Source of the DNA: Dehalococcoidia bacterium
Lineage (GTDB): Bacteria; Chloroflexota; Dehalococcoidia; Lucifugimonadales; UBA3495
Length of the DNA stretch: 64,000 nucleotides
Reading direction: 5' to 3'
Assembly (NCBI GenBank): GCA_965203975.1
Contig: CBDBDT010000001.1
Coordinates: forward strand, 56,675 to 120,674
A program made the position numbers and the translations under genes. How positions within the stretch are numbered: position 1 is the first letter of the stretch; every line of letters starts with the position of its first letter. Positions 5,035 through 18,114 of the stretch are shown piece after piece. The notes below the pieces were generated by a model that was not told the origin of the DNA, ran no database searches, and saw nothing but the letters and a program-made list of their open reading frames with translations.

Positions 5035-5712
5035 ATGGTTGACCTCCAACCCACCGACCAGGGCCAGTGGCTTTCCCTGGGAGAGGCGTGCCGTCTCCTC
5101 CAGGTGAAGGAGGCTACGCTGCGGCATTGGGCCGACCTGGGACATCTGCGGGTCTACCGGACGCCCGGAGGGCACCGCCGATTTTCCAGGGAGGACGTGC
5201 TCAGCCTCACCCAGCCGGCGGCCGTTCCGGCGGAGGCCGAGTCGAGGGAGCGGCTGGAGGGTTCCACCCTGCGGAGGATCCGCCGGCGCCTGGGGCACGA
5301 GGATGTGGCCCGGCAATCGTGGTTCCAGAGCGTGGAGGAAGAAGGTCGCGACCGGATGCGGCTATTCGGGCGCCGTTTGCTCTCGTTGCTGCTGCAGGAA
5401 TCCCAACCTCGGCGGCGGCGACAGGAAACCCTGGAGGAAGCCCTGATGCTGGGGCACGAGTACGGCGCCGAAATGGCCGACCGCCATACCCCGTTGAAAG
5501 ATACGATTGAGGCATTCGTTTTCTTCCGCACCATGGTGCTGGATTCGGGCAACGGCGCGTCCTGGCCCCAGGTGCTGGAAACGTCGGACCGGGTGTTGGT
5601 GGGAATCGTGGAATCCTACGAGAAACGGCTGAATCGGAACGGTGGGGATTCTGTTCCCGCCCGGGGCGGGGCAAACGCCCGGCACGGAGCCGCCGAGCAA
5701 CCCCTTGACTAG
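5035..5712 (+). CDS. BldC/MerR-like (excisionase-type) HTH regulator with helical C-terminal domain
   Basis: LSLGEACRLLQV...TLRHWADLGHL...RTPGGHRRF is similar to the BldC winged HTH. Confidence 0.8.
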   Translation: MVDLQPTDQGQWLSLGEACRLLQVKEATLRHWADLGHLRVYRTPGGHRRFSREDVLSLTQPAAVPAEAESRERLEGSTLRRIRRRLGHEDVARQSWFQSVEEEGRDRMRLFGRRLLSLLLQESQPRRRRQETLEEALMLGHEYGAEMADRHTPLKDTIEAFVFFRTMVLDSGNGASWPQVLETSDRVLVGIVESYEKRLNRNGGDSVPARGGANARHGAAEQPLD

Positions 5713-5750
5713 TTACCTTGTAAACAGGCTGCGGAGGCGGCGACCCTTAA
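5684..5750 (+). ncRNA. Candidate novel cis-regulatory RNA motif, copy 1 (ahbAB leader)
   Basis: 57/67 ungapped identity to 51901-51967(-); GCCGCC/GGCGGC closing stem. Confidence 0.65.
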
Positions 5751-5771
5751 ATCCAACGGAGACAGACTGAG

Positions 5772-6839
5772 ATGGACCTGGCTGACCGCAATCTACTGAA
5801 CATCATCCAGAGCCGGTTCCCCTTGGCCGATGAGCCCTACCGGGCAATCGGGGAAGAATTGGGAATTGGCGGGGACGAGGTCATATCCCGGCTGGCGGAG
5901 CTGAAGCGGCAGAACGTGGTGCGTCAGATCAGCGCCATCTTCGACACGCGGCGGCTGGGATACAAGACGACGCTGGTCGCCTTCGCCTACGAACCGGAGA
6001 AGCTGCACGACGGGGCGATATTCATCAACCGCCATCCCGGGGTGAGCCATAACTATGCCCGGGAAGGGTCCTACTACAACCTGTGGTTCACCATCGCCGT
6101 GCCTCCCGACGGGGACCTGGAAGCGACGATAGTGTGGATGGCGGAGCAGACCGGGGCGCAGAACTACCGGATCATGCCGACGATCCGCTTCTTCAAAATC
6201 GGCGTCAACTTCGACATGGTGAACCGGAAGAGCTCGGCCCACAACTACAATCCCGATGCCGCCCCGGGGGAACAGGCGCAGCGGGCGCCGGCCCCGGACT
6301 GGAACCAGGCGGTGCCGGTGGCCGAAGAGGAGAAGGCGGCAATCCGGGAGCTACAGGAGGACCTGGAACTGGTGAGCCGTCCCTTCGACGCCATGTCGGA
6401 GCGGCTGGGAATGACCAACTCCGAGCTGTTCGCCCTGGCGGCGGAGTTCCAGGAAAGGAAGATCATGCGGCGGTTCAGCGCGGTGCTGCACCACCGCCGG
6501 TCCGGTTTCCGGGCCAACGCGATGATTGTCTGGAAGGTGCCGAAGGAACGATACGAAGAAGTCGGGATGATCATGGCCGAACATTCGGCGGTGACCCACT
6601 GCTACCAGCGTCCGACATTCCCGGACTGGCCCTACACCCATTTCACCATGGTCCACGCCACGACCCCCGAAGGTTGCGAGGAGATATCCGAGGAGATCAG
6701 CAGGGCGACCGGGGTCACGGACAACCTGATGCTTTACAGCACCCGGGAGTACAAGAAGACCCGGGTGAAGTATTTCGTCGAGGACTACGAGGAGTTCTGG
6801 GAAAACGAGCAGGCGGAGCTGGCCGCCGTCGACGACTAG
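5772..6839 (+). CDS. ahbAB: Siroheme decarboxylase, fused AhbA-AhbB (NirDL-like)
   Basis: Two AsnC-like halves with HPGVSHNYAR and VTHCYQRP; located in the heme operon. Confidence 0.85.
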   Translation: MDLADRNLLNIIQSRFPLADEPYRAIGEELGIGGDEVISRLAELKRQNVVRQISAIFDTRRLGYKTTLVAFAYEPEKLHDGAIFINRHPGVSHNYAREGSYYNLWFTIAVPPDGDLEATIVWMAEQTGAQNYRIMPTIRFFKIGVNFDMVNRKSSAHNYNPDAAPGEQAQRAPAPDWNQAVPVAEEEKAAIRELQEDLELVSRPFDAMSERLGMTNSELFALAAEFQERKIMRRFSAVLHHRRSGFRANAMIVWKVPKERYEEVGMIMAEHSAVTHCYQRPTFPDWPYTHFTMVHATTPEGCEEISEEISRATGVTDNLMLYSTREYKKTRVKYFVEDYEEFWENEQAELAAVDD

Positions 6840-14809: not shown

Positions 14810-16102
14810 ATGAACCAACCCAATTCTGAACGATTATTTTCTCAGGCCCAGCAGTACATCCCAGGTGGGGTCAACAGCCCGGTACGGTCATTCCGGGCGG
14901 TTGAGGGAACGCCGCCGTTCATTGCCCGGGGGCAGGGCAGCCGGGTCTGGGACGTGGACGGCAACGAGTACATTGACTACGTCTGCTCGTGGGGTCCTCT
15001 GGCCTTGGGCCATGCCCATCCGGCAGTGGTCGAGGCGCTGCGGGAAGCCGCCGGGAACGGCACGAGCTTCGGCGCTCCCACCGAGAGGGAGGTGGAGCTG
15101 GCCCGGATGATATGCGAGGCGCTGCCGTCGGTGGACAGCGTACGGCTGGTTAGCTCCGGGACGGAGGCGTGCATGAGCGCCATCCGTCTGGCCCGGGCGT
15201 ACACGGGCCGCAGCAAGATTATCAAGTTCGCGGGCTGCTACCACGGTCACGCCGACGGGTTGCTGGTGCGGGCCGGGTCGGGGGCGATGACCCACGGCGT
15301 TCCCACCAGCGCGGGCGTGCCGGAGTCCTACGCTCAGGAAACCCTGGTGGCCGACTACAACGACCTGGCGTCGGTGGAGCGGTATTTCGGGGAGTACCCG
15401 GGTGACGTGGCCGGCGTCATCGTGGAGCCGGTGGCGGGGAACATGGGAGTGGTCCCCCCGGCGGAGGGTTTCCTGGAGGGGCTGCGGCGGGGGACCCGGG
15501 ACAACGGGGCGGCTCTAATCTTCGACGAGGTGATTACCGGCTTCCGGGTTGCCTACGGCGGGGCGCAGACGCTGTATGGGATCACCCCGGACATAACCTG
15601 CCTGGGAAAGATTATTGGTGGCGGGCTGCCCGTGGGCGCCTACGGCGGGCGGCGGGAGATCATGGAGCAGGTGGCTCCGCTGGGGCCGATGTACCAGGCG
15701 GGCACCCTGTCCGGCAACCCGCTGGCGGTCACGGCTGGCATCACCACGTTGAGAGAGTTGCAGAAGCCGGGGGTCTACGAGGGGCTGGACGCATTGGCGC
15801 AGCGCCTCACCGACGGCATTGAAGGGGTTTTCCAGCGGGCCGAGGTCCCCGGGAGCATCAACCGGGTGCAGTCCATGTTCACCGGGTTCTTCACCGGCGG
15901 CCCGGTGGAAGCGCTGGCCCAGGTGGAGCAGTCCGATGCCGGACAGTACGGAAGATACTTCCACGCCATGCTGGAGCGGGGCGTCTATTTCGCTCCGTCC
16001 CAGTTCGAGGCAGGGTTCGTATCCACCGCCCATACGGAAGAGGACATCGACCGGACGATAGAGGCGGCGGAGGCGGCTTTGGGGGAACTGGAGATTACCT
16101 GA
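14810..16102 (+). CDS. hemL: Glutamate-1-semialdehyde 2,1-aminomutase
   Basis: [38 protein letters not shown]. Confidence 0.95.
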
Positions 16103-16608
16103 TGTCCACCGAACTTGCCAACCGGCATTCCGAGATGAGCCTCCGGCTGCTCCAGCAAGCGCACTACGAGTTGGAGCAAAAGGCCGATCGGGTGCAGGCT
16201 TCTGAGAAAGCGGCGGGGGCGGTGGCCCATGCCATCAAAGCTATTGCCGAAGACCGACAGTGGCGGCACGGTTCCCACAACCTGCGGCGGGAGGTTATGG
16301 CGTTGATGGCTGCCGAGTATGGCAATCCCGCGTTGGGGATCCTCCAGCAGTACGCCGATGAGTTGCATGGCAACTTCTACGAGGACCGTCTGCATGACTG
16401 GCACTTGAGGTTGAAATTGGCTGACGTGACCGGACTGTTGGAGTTCCTGCTAGATGCGCGGGAGCGGGGACCGAATCCCGATTTCGTTCCCTCCGCTGAC
16501 CAGCAGCAGTCAATTGACAGGCTTCGGTTGAGCGAGGAGGAAGCGTCGGTCGATCCCCTCATAGACTATCCGCCGCCGATGCCTCCGTTCGTGGCGCCTG
16601 AGGGGTAG
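16102..16608 (+). CDS. PaREP1/HEPN-like protein
   Basis: QASEKAAGAVAHAIKA...LHGNFYE signature. Confidence 0.75.
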   Translation: MSTELANRHSEMSLRLLQQAHYELEQKADRVQASEKAAGAVAHAIKAIAEDRQWRHGSHNLRREVMALMAAEYGNPALGILQQYADELHGNFYEDRLHDWHLRLKLADVTGLLEFLLDARERGPNPDFVPSADQQQSIDRLRLSEEEASVDPLIDYPPPMPPFVAPEG

Positions 16609-16690: not shown

Positions 16691-17140
16691 TTAGGCGCCG
16701 TAGCGGACGGCGGCGTTGGGGTCGCTGTACTCGACGCCCTTGGTGGCCCAAAAGGCCGTGGCGATGTCGTCAACGGCGGCGACCAGGTTCTCGGCGTTTT
16801 CCATGCTGACGGTCTGCTTGCACTGTCCGGCCAGCTTGAGGGCGGCGTTGAACTTGGCGGCGATTTCATTGGCGTCGGTGTTGGGCCAGGTGTAGTCGGC
16901 CCAGAGGACACGCAGTTCATGCTTGCACAGCTCGGCATGCTGTTCCTTGACCGCCACGTAGCGGGACATGGTGTTGGCGGTTCCTGCGTCGTGGCCGTGC
17001 TCGAGAGCCTCGATCCGGAGCACCATTTTCTGGACCGTCTGGGCCGCAATCTTGGCCGAGATGGGGTCGTAAATTCCGCAGGGGATGTCACAGTGGGCGT
17101 AAGCCTTCTGTACCTTCAACCAGCGCAGCGGGTTAATCAT
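16691..17140 (-). CDS. sodN: Nickel superoxide dismutase precursor
   Basis: Ni-hook HCDIPCGIYDP after a 15-aa leader. Confidence 0.95.
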   Translation of the reverse strand: MINPLRWLKVQKAYAHCDIPCGIYDPISAKIAAQTVQKMVLRIEALEHGHDAGTANTMSRYVAVKEQHAELCKHELRVLWADYTWPNTDANEIAAKFNAALKLAGQCKQTVSMENAENLVAAVDDIATAFWATKGVEYSDPNAAVRYGA

Positions 17141-17158
17141 TCGTTGCCTTCCTCCTAG

Positions 17159-17280
17159 TCTGAGTGTCGCCGCCTTCCCCCAAAGCCCGCCCCTTCGCGC
17201 CCAATTCAGGTTACTTGTCCAGGGGTGTAGGGAGGGTGGGTCACCGGGTGGGTTTTCAAAGGCCGGCTTGGCGGCTCCGT
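17159..17280 (-). ncRNA. Candidate novel cis-regulatory RNA motif, copy 3 (sodN leader, with insertions)
   Basis: Blocks ACGGAGCCGCCAAGC, CCCCTGGACAAGTAACCTG and AAGGCGGCGACACTCAG in the same order as the other copies. Confidence 0.6.
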
Positions 17281-17299
17281 GTGTTGAATGGGCAGCCCA

Positions 17300-17328
17300 A
17301 GGTTACAAGAAAAGGGGATTGGGCGCAA
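17300..17328 (-). promoter_or_regulatory. Putative sodN promoter
   Basis: TTGCGC-N17-TAACCT on the minus strand, just upstream of the leader motif. Confidence 0.5.
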
Positions 17329-17556
17329 GTACGAAATCTCCGATTAGCGTAAACCGAGGGCGTTACGGCCGCCCGAATCCTCTTTGGCGTTGGGTTGACC
17401 CGCAAGTCCCCGCCGCTTCCTGGCGGGTGGTTCACTGGTTCGACACGGCTGCCGCCAGCGGGTATTATCAGGGGCGGGCCGGAGGGAGCATTCCGCCGCC
17501 ATCCGGGGATCTGAACAAAGGTCTGAATACATTCAAGAATACAAGGAGGCGCAGTC

Positions 17557-18114
17557 ATGGCGCGGCTAGGCAACGTTGAGAGAGACGAGTTGAAACCCGA
17601 GGAACACCAGTATTACGACTCCATAGCCGACAGCCGCGGCAGCGTGCGCGGCCCCTACGGCGTGCTGCTACACAGCCCCGACCTGGCGGCGCGGGTGGCC
17701 CACACCGGAGCCTACGTCCGGTTCAACCTGGACCTGCCCGAGTCGCTGAAGGAGACAATCATCATCACCACGGCCCGGGAGATCAAGAACCAGTATGAGT
17801 TCTCGGCCCACGCCCGCCTGGCGCGGCAGGCCGGGGTGCCGGATGATACCATCGCTGCCATCGCCAACGGCACCGCTCCCTATGGATTGGAGGGCGAGAC
17901 GGCCCTGCTGGTCACCTATACCAAGGAACTGCTGCAGTACCGGAAGATAAGCGACGCCACTTATAAAGCAGTCGTGGACAAGTATGGCGTGAGCAAGACC
18001 CTGGAGATCACCGCCCTGATTGGCCATTACCTGCTGGTGGGCCAGATCCTGGCGGCCTTCGAGGTCGACCTCCCGGAGGGGGTGGGGCCGGAGATTCCCG
18101 TAACCGGACAATAG
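17557..18114 (+). CDS. Carboxymuconolactone decarboxylase/AhpD-like protein
   Basis: GPYGVLLHSPDLA...EFSAHARLARQAGV. Confidence 0.8.
   Translation: MARLGNVERDELKPEEHQYYDSIADSRGSVRGPYGVLLHSPDLAARVAHTGAYVRFNLDLPESLKETIIITTAREIKNQYEFSAHARLARQAGVPDDTIAAIANGTAPYGLEGETALLVTYTKELLQYRKISDATYKAVVDKYGVSKTLEITALIGHYLLVGQILAAFEVDLPEGVGPEIPVTGQ

What the first reader, a model, noticed from the sequence alone, without database searches (positions are those of the whole stretch)
17159..17280. sodN copy of the motif carries compensating insertions, indicating RNA-level conservation
Seen: in the sodN leader the three conserved blocks are nearly invariant (the first 15 nt are identical to the gltB copy). A ~40-nt C-rich segment sits before the middle block and a ~30-nt G-rich segment after it, and these could pair as an extended stem. 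The motif starts about 20 nt after a TTGCGC-N17-TAACCT promoter and ends just before the AGGAGG SD. Variable-length helices with fixed junction sequences are typical of structured RNAs rather than DNA operators. The position suggests translational control.
Basis: partly seen in the sequence, partly recalled or inferred. Interest (0 to 1): 0.7.

Follow-up and report, generated by a model that had tools for sequence, protein, structure and literature searches.

The report
Nested hairpin repeats in sodN leader
The conserved "motif" in front of the nickel superoxide dismutase gene is two nested copies of a small hairpin-shaped repeat that is scattered through this bacterium's genome, not a nickel-sensing RNA switch.

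Summary
The sequence features are real, but the reading changes. The sodN leader (window 17280-17158, minus strand) holds two nested copies of a ~65-73-nt hairpin repeat. A covariance model finds 81 copies (E<0.003) in this 4.2-Mb Dehalococcoidia genome, with covarying stems and a nearly invariant loop, GACAAGTTRCC. The family was found in 3 of 7 other species of the genus and in 0 of 33 genomes from other genera. Two congeners keep the same sodN promoter and Shine-Dalgarno but have no element, and one has only the outer copy. Near-consensus copies are present or absent between sister species. Old shared copies (gltB, ahbAB, sodN) decay, at gltB fastest in the family's "invariant" loop. Downstream genes are functionally unrelated. 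21 of 81 copies are antisense. Orientation follows local GC skew. No Y1/RAYT transposase and no Rfam family match. Best reading: a new REP/MITE-like mobile hairpin repeat, probably co-transcribed in 5' UTRs, and not a Ni- or sodN-specific regulatory RNA.

The parts
17323..17328 (-). -35-like hexamer TTGCGC of the sodN promoter
   Evidence: Read. Identical in all 5 congeners, including the two without the repeat. Not flagged by the consensus scan.
17300..17305 (-). -10-like hexamer TAACCT, 17 nt after the -35
   Evidence: TAACCT or TAATCT in all 5 congeners.
17241..17280 (-). Outer repeat copy ('variant B'), 5' half: P1 5' strand ACGGAGCCGCC plus a side hairpin with loop CTTTGAAAACCC
   Evidence: 15-mer shared with the gltB copy. 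Three further variant-B copies are in the genome (C1:225976, C2:1636604, C2:275462). G001 has this outer copy alone at sodN.
17173..17244 (-). Inner, complete canonical repeat copy: P1 17239-17231/17193-17186, P2 17228-17223/17202-17197, 20-nt loop 17222-17203, tail 17185-17173
   Evidence: cmsearch with model R1: 47.3 bits, E 2.2e-8, model positions 1-73 of 73. This copy was not in the seed.
17209..17219 (-). Loop core GACAAGTAACC (family consensus GACAAGTTRCC, 1 mismatch)
   Evidence: The exact core occurs 61 times in the genome against 2.9 expected.
17158..17174 (-). Outer copy, 3' half: P1 3' strand GGCGGCGAC plus tail ACTCAGAC
   Evidence: pairs with 17275-17270 in the MFE. Retained in G001, G005 and G007.
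17151..17156 (-). Shine-Dalgarno AGGAGG, 10 nt before the ATG
   Evidence: Conserved in all 5 congeners. Essentially unpaired in the MFE.
16691..17140 (-). sodN, nickel superoxide dismutase (149 aa)
   Evidence: ORF. Pfam PF09055 Sod_Ni, E 1.8e-37.
51894..51970 (-). Repeat copy in the gltB leader
   Evidence: R1 58.3 bits, E 9e-11 (this copy was in the seed). Present in G001/G005/G007, absent in G002/G003.
5681..5757 (+). Repeat copy before the siroheme decarboxylase (NirDL/AhbAB-like) gene 5772-6839
   Evidence: R1 53.0 bits, E 1.3e-9 (in the seed). Pfam. Orthologous copies decayed in G001/G005/G007, absent in G002/G003.

Best explanation
The sodN 'motif' is a nested pair of copies of a lineage-specific, ~65-73-nt interspersed hairpin repeat. 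The family unit is a two-helix hairpin (P1, small internal loop, P2) that presents a ~20-23-nt loop with the nearly invariant core GACAAGTTRCC, followed by a tail CCCTTAGAAC. It behaves as a non-autonomous mobile or unstable element. It is high-copy, confined to one subclade of one genus, present or absent at orthologous sites, nested and tandemly arrayed, and found in both orientations. At sodN, an outer variant copy landed between the transcription start and the Shine-Dalgarno sequence, and a canonical copy then landed in (or was later lost from) its loop. Both are probably transcribed as part of the 5' UTR, where they would fold into a closed multi-helix structure that leaves the SD free. 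Any effect on sodN is therefore likely neutral or generic (5' structure affecting mRNA stability), not Ni sensing. Inferred, with lower confidence (about 0.35): the element is propagated as a folded single strand recognised through its loop, by an enzyme not yet identified.
For: SHOWN. (1) Family: 42-copy alignment A1. P1+P2 are paired in 71.7% of cells against 58.3% in shuffles (0 of 500 reach it). Covariation score is 0.272 against <=0.084 for slid partners. 12 of 15 pairs carry changes on both sides. (2) Copy number: model R1 gives 89 hits at E<=1 and 81 at E<0.003 in the 4.17-Mb genome. The loop core is exact in 54 of 81 and has 1 mismatch in 19 of 81; there are 61 exact cores genome-wide against 2.9 expected. 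(3) The sodN leader contains a full-length copy at 17244-17173 that was not in the seed (47.3 bits). The outer blocks match a variant with 3 other copies. (4) Distribution: of 40 relatives, only 3 of 7 congeners have it (73, 117 and >=120 hits). The other 4 congeners have none, and neither do any of 33 genomes from other genera. The carriers form a subclade: GltB N-terminal identity is 95% within it against 83-84% outside. (5) Orthologous sites: at sodN, gltB and ahbAB the element is absent from G002 and G003 while promoter and SD are kept; G001 has only the outer sodN copy. (6) Young copies are polymorphic. The 85.8-bit copy is replaced by 6 nt in G005 and is half-deleted in G001. The 85.0-bit copy is replaced by 2 nt in G001. 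(7) Decay: in the 4-species gltB leader alignment, invariant columns are 177 of 204 in the flank but 8 of 17 in the loop core. G007's ahbAB copy has lost P1 complementarity. (8) No regulon: the 33 downstream proteins scanned (29 with Pfam hits) span unrelated functions such as GlmS, FtsH, AlaRS, ThiG, CbiC, PFK, luciferase-like oxygenases and Uma2. (9) 21 of 81 copies are antisense to the next gene, including the best-scoring one. Tandem arrays have a 63-66-nt period. (10) Transcription, weak: contigs from two RNA-labelled runs span 17022-17280 and 17023-17272. INFERRED, single-strand mobilisation: orientation tracks local GC skew (skew>0: 5 plus, 36 minus; skew<0: 23 plus, 17 minus; Fisher p 2e-5), whereas genes give an odds ratio of only 0.8. 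Tandem G.A/A.G alternates with Watson-Crick pairs at the same columns on the sense strand. The same loop sits on at least 3 different stem scaffolds. No target duplication is visible at two empty sites.
Against: No mobilising enzyme was found: Pfam Y1_Tnp (PF01797) hits 0 of 8 genomes of the genus, although it rings in 6 of 14 control genomes. Other transposase families were not searched. Orientation and position are not random with respect to genes: 60 of 81 copies are co-oriented with the next gene, and 35 of 81 end within 60 nt of its start, against 12% of 2000 random intergenic 73-mers (using my own crude gene caller). The consensus tail abuts the SD in many copies. That fits a host-used 5'-UTR module as well. 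Insertion and deletion cannot be polarised at the two polymorphic sites, because the outgroup intergenic DNA does not align. RNAalifold on A1 predicted only 3 pairs, with energy -0.39. Single-sequence folds are not better than shuffles. GC skew in this genome is patchy and shows no clean two-replichore pattern, so reading it as replication direction is an assumption. The RNA evidence is from assembled contigs of a ~93-95% identical relative, and DNA carry-over cannot be excluded.
Confidence: 0.85

Rival explanations
1. Host-used RNA module. The hairpin is a standard 5'-UTR or intercistronic element (an mRNA stabiliser, a translation-initiation context, or the binding site of a lineage-specific RNA-binding protein or sRNA via the loop). 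It has been spread to, or retained in front of, some 35 or more genes including sodN. This is not exclusive of a mobile origin (exaptation).
For: 60 of 81 copies are co-oriented with the downstream gene, and 35 of 81 lie within 60 nt of its start against 12% of random intergenic positions. The tail CCCTTAGAAC runs directly into the SD in many copies. The stems covary and the loop is nearly invariant. Tandem G.A pairs point to a sense-strand fold. RNA-library contigs cover the sodN leader.
Against: Start-proximal copies are not better preserved: median 57.6 bits, against 63.5 for antisense and 67.6 for distal copies. The loop decays fastest at the orthologous gltB site, and the ahbAB copies show loop indels and a lost P1. 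21 of 81 copies are antisense. Four congeners with the same genes do without it. Downstream genes share no function.
Confidence: 0.2
2. One reading: a structured cis-regulatory RNA (riboswitch-like, possibly Ni-responsive) with variable-length helices that controls sodN translation.
For: It sits between promoter and SD. The flanking segments can pair. The family shows covariation.
Against: No Rfam family matches at gathering or E-value thresholds. There are 81 copies before unrelated genes. It is absent from the sodN leaders of G002 and G003, and the inner copy is absent in G001. The SD is not sequestered in the fold. The 'insertions' are a second full copy.
Confidence: 0.02
3. DNA-level signal. 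The loop (with a TTGACA-like TTRGACA) and the tail are a promoter or an operator for a DNA-binding protein, and the stems are incidental.
For: The loop resembles a -35 hexamer. The element is enriched upstream of genes.
Against: Stems vary in sequence but keep complementarity, which a duplex-binding protein does not require. No -10-like hexamer lies 16-18 nt after the loop hexamer (by reading). The sodN promoter lies upstream of the element and is conserved without it. Tandem and nested copies and antisense copies do not fit.
Confidence: 0.05

Closest known systems
REP elements / REPtrons (GTAG-tagged repetitive extragenic palindromes mobilised by RAYT Y1 transposases)
   Same: Small, high-copy, extragenic, hairpin-forming repeats. 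Abundance differs sharply between close relatives. They occur singly, in arrays and in both orientations, and are plausibly transcribed and active as RNA hairpins (Di Nocera et al. 2013, PMC3733652; abstract and discussion passages read).
   Different: This element is 65-73 nt rather than 20-40 bp. It has two helices and a large loop with conserved sequence instead of a near-perfect palindrome. The consensus has no terminal GTAG tag. No RAYT/Y1 gene is found in 8 of 8 genomes of the genus. It is enriched just upstream of start codons, whereas REPs lie mostly downstream of ORFs.
CGTC-tagged REPs (e.g. Rickettsia RPE-type), which lack a dedicated transposase
   Same: A palindromic repeat family with no cognate transposase in the genome (for that family; here).
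   Different: No terminal CGTC tag. A CGTC occurs only inside the internal loop of one subfamily, on the reverse strand (read). Architecture and host lineage differ.
MITEs that land in promoter-proximal regions and are co-transcribed (e.g. Neisseria Correia elements; recalled, not checked in a paper here)
   Same: Works alike: short non-autonomous insertions between promoters and genes that become structured parts of 5' UTRs, with insertion polymorphism between strains.
   Different: No sequence-conserved terminal inverted repeats (the arms covary). No target-site duplication at the two empty sites examined. No related autonomous IS was identified.
IS200/IS605-type single-strand transposition
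   Same: Recognition of folded single-strand hairpins, and a strand bias linked to replication (abstract of PMC6006769 seen in the listing). Here orientation follows GC skew, and no duplication is visible at empty sites.
   Different: The defining Y1 HUH transposase is absent. The element has one hairpin rather than distinct left and right ends. The mechanism is inferred only.
NiCo (czcD-type) and other metal riboswitches in Rfam 15
   Same: Position in a 5' leader of a metal-related gene.
   Different: No covariance-model match. Multi-copy before unrelated genes. Not conserved in orthologous leaders.

Membership tests
Known Rfam family (any riboswitch or cis-regulatory RNA, including NiCo) | Match to the family's covariance model | tested here: not met
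   At gathering thresholds the window gives only SSU rRNA and tmRNA. E-value mode on 17100-17350 and 51850-52050 gives only chance-level hits, E 1.9-7.7, to eukaryotic lncRNA/miRNA families.
Ligand-specific riboswitch | Downstream genes form a coherent pathway or regulon | tested here: not met
   33 downstream proteins were scanned and 29 have Pfam hits covering unrelated functions. To these add sodN, gltB and siroheme decarboxylase.
Ligand-specific riboswitch / conserved cis-regulatory RNA | Conserved in orthologous leaders, with the most conserved core under purifying selection | tested here: not met
   Absent in G002 and G003 at sodN, gltB and ahbAB. The loop core has 8 of 17 invariant columns against 177 of 204 in the flank at gltB.
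Structured single-strand element (generic) | Compensatory base changes in the helices | tested here: met
   Covariation 0.272 against <=0.084 for slid partners; 0 of 500 shuffles reach it; 12 of 15 pairs change on both sides. Caveats: the copies are paralogues that fall into subfamilies, and RNAalifold alone found only 3 pairs.
REP (sensu stricto) | 20-40 bp imperfect palindrome with a terminal GTAG (or CGTC) tag | tested here: not met
   The unit is 65-73 nt with a 20-23-nt conserved loop, and the consensus has no terminal tag. The definition is taken from PMC3733652.
REP / REPtron | A RAYT (Y1 HUH transposase) gene in the genome, flanked by the repeats | tested here: not met
   PF01797 hits 0 of 8 genomes of the genus in six frames, while the positive controls ring in 6 of 14. 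Reading the hit list, I saw no gene flanked by inverted copies.
REP / MITE (interspersed mobile repeats, broad sense) | High copy number, extragenic, patchy among close relatives, presence/absence at orthologous sites | tested here: met
   81 copies. 73 of 81 overlap a predicted gene by 30 nt or less. 3 of 7 congeners and 0 of 33 genomes from other genera carry it. Empty or partial sites appear.
MITE (sensu stricto) | Sequence-conserved terminal inverted repeats, a target-site duplication, and a related autonomous IS | tested here: inconclusive
   The arms are complementary but covary. No duplication is visible at 2 of 2 empty sites, but the flanks have diverged. Apart from PF01797, no autonomous partner was searched for.
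IS200/IS605-like single-strand mobilisation | Strand bias relative to replication | tested here: inconclusive
   There is a strong association with local GC skew (Fisher p 2e-5; 70 independent loci give p 4e-4). But the skew is patchy, without clear replichores, so the link to replication is assumed.

The most novel reading that the evidence does not exclude
The family is a new kind of transposase-less, strand-biased hairpin element whose 11-nt loop, shown on at least three different stem scaffolds, is the recognition determinant for an unknown (non-Y1) enzyme or RNA-binding protein. By landing between promoters and Shine-Dalgarno sequences it has given some 35 or more unrelated genes (sodN, gltB, glmS, ftsH, alaS and others) a common structured 5' UTR. 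The host may now read these through one lineage-specific post-transcriptional regulator.
Probability: 0.2. Interest if true: 0.65.

Novelty: new variant of a known kind. Interest (0 to 1): 0.4.

Why it matters
For the scan, this is a warning case. A leader motif with fixed blocks, pairing "insertions" and real covariation looked like a riboswitch, but genome-wide and between-species comparison shows a mobile repeat. For biology, uncultured marine Dehalococcoidia are not known for interspersed hairpin repeats. I found no description of them in three full-text searches. This family has a large conserved loop, no RAYT, a GC-skew-linked orientation and a preference for the promoter-to-SD interval. 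That extends the range of REP/MITE-like elements and offers a natural series (empty, single, nested) for testing how such insertions change the expression of an oxidative-stress gene.

Tried and rejected
1. Rfam, at gathering and at E-value thresholds, found nothing relevant.

2. Single-sequence folding of the three window copies and of the sodN composite gave z-scores from +0.16 to +2.05, so there is no thermodynamic signal. One search failed on a length limit and was repeated with a shorter stretch.

3. RNAalifold on A1 predicted only 3 pairs because several rows were shifted by MAFFT. I therefore set the structure by hand and tested it with the count of structure pairs.

4. A loose regex for the two P1 arms gave 909 mostly spurious hits and was abandoned.

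5. A naive first-ORF search downstream of copies was too noisy in this GC-rich genome. It was replaced by a codon-usage gene caller (3601 genes, 80% coding). That caller still misplaces some starts; gltB, for example, is called 84 nt too short.

6. I compared G.U against A.C mismatches to decide which strand folds. The counts were 23 against 30, so there is no asymmetry.

7. The Y1/RAYT search was negative.

Most are single chance hits in unrelated phyla. Multi-hit or tandem stretches appeared only in three records titled as Dehalococcoidia MAGs, so the scan adds little beyond.

9. RNA runs hold only 5-9% of the sampled words. X3 and X7 cover only parts of the sodN coding region, and parts without cover say nothing.

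10. Earlier scan notes held nothing on this motif.

11. A -35/-10 reading of the loop and tail was considered and rejected on spacing, by reading.

Full report
**What is at the coordinates.** sodN (149 aa; Pfam Sod_Ni, E 1.8e-37) lies at 16691-17140 on the minus strand. Read on that strand, the leader runs as follows:
- TTGCGC (17328-17323), 17 nt, TAACCT (17305-17300), then 19 nt
- the reported motif, 17280 to 17158
- AGGAGG (17156-17151), 10 nt, then ATG

The first 15 nt, ACGGAGCCGCCAAGC, recur exactly at 51967-51953 (-) in front of gltB, and with one mismatch at 5684-5698 (+) in front of a NirDL/AhbAB-type siroheme decarboxylase gene. That is 3 matches against 0.30 expected, and 0 of 100 shuffles reach 3. 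The C-rich and G-rich stretches on either side of the middle block exist and pair in the minimum-free-energy fold, inside an outer GCCGCC/GGCGGC helix. Two results count against over-reading it. The folds are no better than shuffled sequence (z +0.95 to +2.05). No Rfam family matches at gathering or permissive thresholds.

**The motif is a multi-copy family.** Searching the whole genome (4.17 Mb, 2 contigs; the window is C1:56675-120674) for the middle block showed dozens of look-alikes with a common plan. I aligned 42 copies: 40 from elsewhere in the genome plus the gltB and ahbAB copies. The sodN copy was left out. The consensus is:

ACGG-GCCGCC-CAG-nnCCC-TT-GGACAAGTTACC-TnnnTn-GGGnG-CGAAAG-CGGCG-ACCCTTAGAA

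RNAalifold recovered only 3 pairs on this alignment, because several rows are shifted. I therefore wrote the structure by hand: P1 of 9 pairs, a small internal loop, P2 of 6 pairs, and a 23-column hairpin loop. Counting pairs under that structure gave:
- 71.7% of cells paired, against 58.3% in shuffles (0 of 500 reach it)
- covariation score 0.272, against 0.114 in shuffles (0 of 500) and at most 0.084 when the partners are slid
- 12 of 15 pairs with changes on both sides (11 of 500 shuffles reach this)

At two adjacent columns in each helix, Watson-Crick pairs alternate with tandem G.A/A.G on the sense strand: 17-19 of 42 copies in P1 and 8-10 of 42 in P2. From recalled knowledge, tandem G.A is well tolerated in helices, whereas the complementary strand would carry pyrimidine mismatches. 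This points to a fold on the sense strand. A G.U against A.C count (23 against 30) did not discriminate between the strands.

**Copy number.** A covariance model (R1; 73 positions, 15 pairs) finds 89 hits at E<=1 and 81 at E<0.003 in the genome (150 of 2163 first-look candidates were scored). The loop core GACAAGTTRCC is exact in 54 of the 81 and has one mismatch in 19. Genome-wide it occurs 61 times, against 2.9 expected from base composition. Of the 7 occurrences outside model hits, 6 are intergenic and 3 sit on a different stem scaffold. A third scaffold with long perfect stems also appears.

**What the sodN copy really is.** In the window R1 gives three significant hits: gltB (58.3 bits), ahbAB (53.0 bits), and 17244-17173 (-) in the sodN leader. 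The sodN hit scores 47.3 bits, E 2.2e-8, and covers all 73 model positions without a large insertion.

The "middle block" is the loop. The "G-rich insertion" is the 3' strands (17202-17186) plus the tail.

The two outer "blocks" (17280-17241 and 17174-17158) belong to a second, enclosing copy of a variant whose loop reads CTTTGARAACCC. Three other copies of that variant exist, each again just upstream of a start codon.

The leader is therefore two nested repeat copies, not one motif with variable-length helices.

**Distribution.** Among 40 relatives, R1 hits only 3 of 7 other species of the same genus: G001 with at least 120 hits (the scoring cap), G005 with 117, and G007 with 73. It hits none of the other 4 congeners and none of 33 genomes from other genera of the family and order. 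"Not found in those searched" is the claim; completeness of those genomes is 82-99%. The carriers form a subclade: GltB N-terminal identity to G000 is 95% for G001, G005 and G007, against 83-84% for G002 and G003. Tandem arrays with a 63-66-nt period occur in G000, G001 and G005. In G000, 6 of 81 copies lie within 250 nt of another. Multi-hit stretches appeared only in three records titled as Dehalococcoidia MAGs, which agrees with an earlier scan note on the organism.

**Orthologous leaders.** The sodN leaders compare as follows:
- All five congeners examined keep TTGCGC-N17-TAAYCT and AGGAGG.
- G002 and G003 have about 13 unrelated nucleotides where the element would be.
- G001 has only the outer variant copy.
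- G000, G005 and G007 have the nested pair.

At gltB and ahbAB the element is likewise present in the four subclade species and absent in G002 and G003.

These old shared copies decay. In the four-species gltB leader alignment, invariant columns are:

| Region | Invariant columns |
|---|---|
| Upstream flank | 177 of 204 |
| Tail to ATG | 35 of 38 |
| Loop core (the family's most conserved part) | 8 of 17 |

P2 changes there are one-sided. The ahbAB copies carry loop indels in G001 and G005, a 5' deletion in G001, and a P1 3' strand in G007 that no longer matches.

**Young copies are polymorphic.** The best-scoring copy (85.8 bits) is present in G007. In G005 it is replaced by 6 nt (query 604-670 missing). 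In G001 it is reduced to the fused P1 arms plus tail. The 85.0-bit copy is replaced by 2 nt in G001. In G005 it has a different small GTAG-containing palindrome inserted in its loop. No target duplication is visible at either empty site. The outgroup intergenic DNA does not align, so insertion and deletion cannot be polarised.

**Context.** With my own codon-usage gene caller (3601 genes; imperfect starts), the 81 copies break down as follows:
- 60 are co-oriented with the next gene.
- 35 end within 60 nt of its start, against 12% of 2000 random intergenic 73-mers.
- 21 are antisense, including the top-scoring copy.
- 8 overlap a predicted gene by more than 30 nt.

The 33 start-proximal downstream proteins scanned (29 with Pfam hits) are unrelated in function. 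They include GlmS, FtsH, AlaRS, ThiG, CbiC, phosphofructokinase, gamma-glutamyltranspeptidase, two luciferase-like oxygenases, two enoyl-CoA hydratases and two Uma2 proteins. Start-proximal copies are not better preserved: median 57.6 bits, against 63.5 for antisense and 67.6 for distal copies.

Orientation follows local GC skew measured over +/-25 kb:

| Local GC skew | Copies on plus strand | Copies on minus strand |
|---|---|---|
| Positive | 5 | 36 |
| Negative | 23 | 17 |

Fisher p is 2e-5 for all copies and 4e-4 for 70 loci counted once. Genes show an odds ratio of only 0.8. The skew itself is patchy.

**Transcription.** Contigs of two RNA-labelled runs from different studies span 17022-17280 and 17023-17272 at about 93-95% identity, so they come from a relative with the nested form. 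They stop 10-20 nt downstream of where the promoter would start transcription. This is a weak hint that the whole composite is in the sodN 5' UTR. Contigs cannot show a start, and DNA carry-over is possible.

**Mechanism.** Shown: a lineage-restricted, high-copy hairpin repeat with presence/absence polymorphism, nesting, arrays and locus-level decay. These are the marks of a mobile or unstable selfish repeat.

Inferred: propagation as a folded single strand recognised through the loop. The grounds are the same loop on several scaffolds, arms that covary, the sense-strand G.A pairs, the skew-linked orientation, and no target duplication.

The enzyme is unknown. Pfam Y1_Tnp (RAYT/IS200) hits 0 of 8 genomes of the genus, while it rings in 6 of 14 controls. 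Other transposase families were not tested.

At sodN the insertions sit between the transcription start and a free SD. I expect a generic or neutral effect on the mRNA, not Ni sensing.

**Comparison with known systems.** The element works like REP elements and promoter-proximal MITEs. It fails the defining features of REPs sensu stricto: size, a GTAG or CGTC tag, and a RAYT (Di Nocera et al. 2013, PMC3733652; abstract and discussion passages read). MITE features are unresolved.

I found no description of such repeats in SAR202, Dehalococcoidia or Chloroflexi in three full-text searches. One search returned 4 papers, none relevant by title or abstract. One search returned 6 papers, of which 5 were listed and 2 are general REP/HUH surveys. 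One search returned 0. Supplements were not examined.

**Verdict.** The regulatory, Ni-linked interpretation is not supported beyond the fact that a hairpin is conserved. The element is a new variant of interspersed hairpin repeats. Interest is moderate.

Noticed in passing
window 52058-52077 (-), with TGTATAAT about 25 nt upstream: A conserved inverted repeat, ATTGTGATATATTTAACAAT, lies just downstream of an extended -10-like TGTATAAT in the gltB upstream region. It is nearly identical in all 6 genomes of the genus examined, including those without the hairpin repeat. It is a candidate operator of a nitrogen regulator.
   Followed up: partly
window 5035-5712 (+) versus 5681-5757: The ORF upstream of the siroheme decarboxylase gene runs about 32 nt into the repeat copy and takes its stop codon from the repeat's loop. 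In G002 the orthologous frame appears to stop earlier, before the place where the repeat sits. The insertion seems to have lengthened a protein's C-terminus.
   Followed up: partly
G000 C1:773362-773446 and C2:1132714 region; L215 (G005) and L217 (G007): A second small repeat, a G+C-rich palindrome with GTAG in its loop (CCCCCGCGTAGGCGGGGG), recurs in G000, G005 and G007. In G005 it is inserted inside the loop of a hairpin-repeat copy.
   Followed up: no
L079 positions about 1950-2190 (G000 C2:1897800-1898040): Further short repeat families (about 45-105 nt) have dozens of matches at up to 100% identity in G001, G005 and G007, and some in G002 and G003. This genus is rich in interspersed repeats.
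   Followed up: no
G000 C1:317583-317667, C1:291957-292041, C2:1541683-1541767, C2:2145637-2145721, C2:2661319 region: 'Variant C': the same loop core, GAGACAAGTTRCC, is presented by a different, longer double-stem scaffold (ACTCCGCGCGACAGCC...GGAGTCGCAAAAG...CCAGACCC). The model R1 does not find it.
   Followed up: partly
window 56140-56796: Three tandem copies of a 219-nt unit (100%, 95% and 79% identity) lie upstream of the 16S rRNA gene region.
   Followed up: no
whole genome G000: GC skew alternates in patches of 50-200 kb (+/-0.1 to 0.2) with no clear two-replichore pattern. Gene orientation barely follows it. The cause may be rearrangements, assembly joins or an unusual replication mode.
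   Followed up: partly
window 16102-16608 (+) and 17440-17468 (+): A PaREP1-family protein gene (E 2.8e-9) lies next to sodN. A good sigma-70-like promoter, TCGACA-17-TATTAT, lies on the plus strand for the divergent carboxymuconolactone-decarboxylase-family gene at 17557-18114.
   Followed up: no
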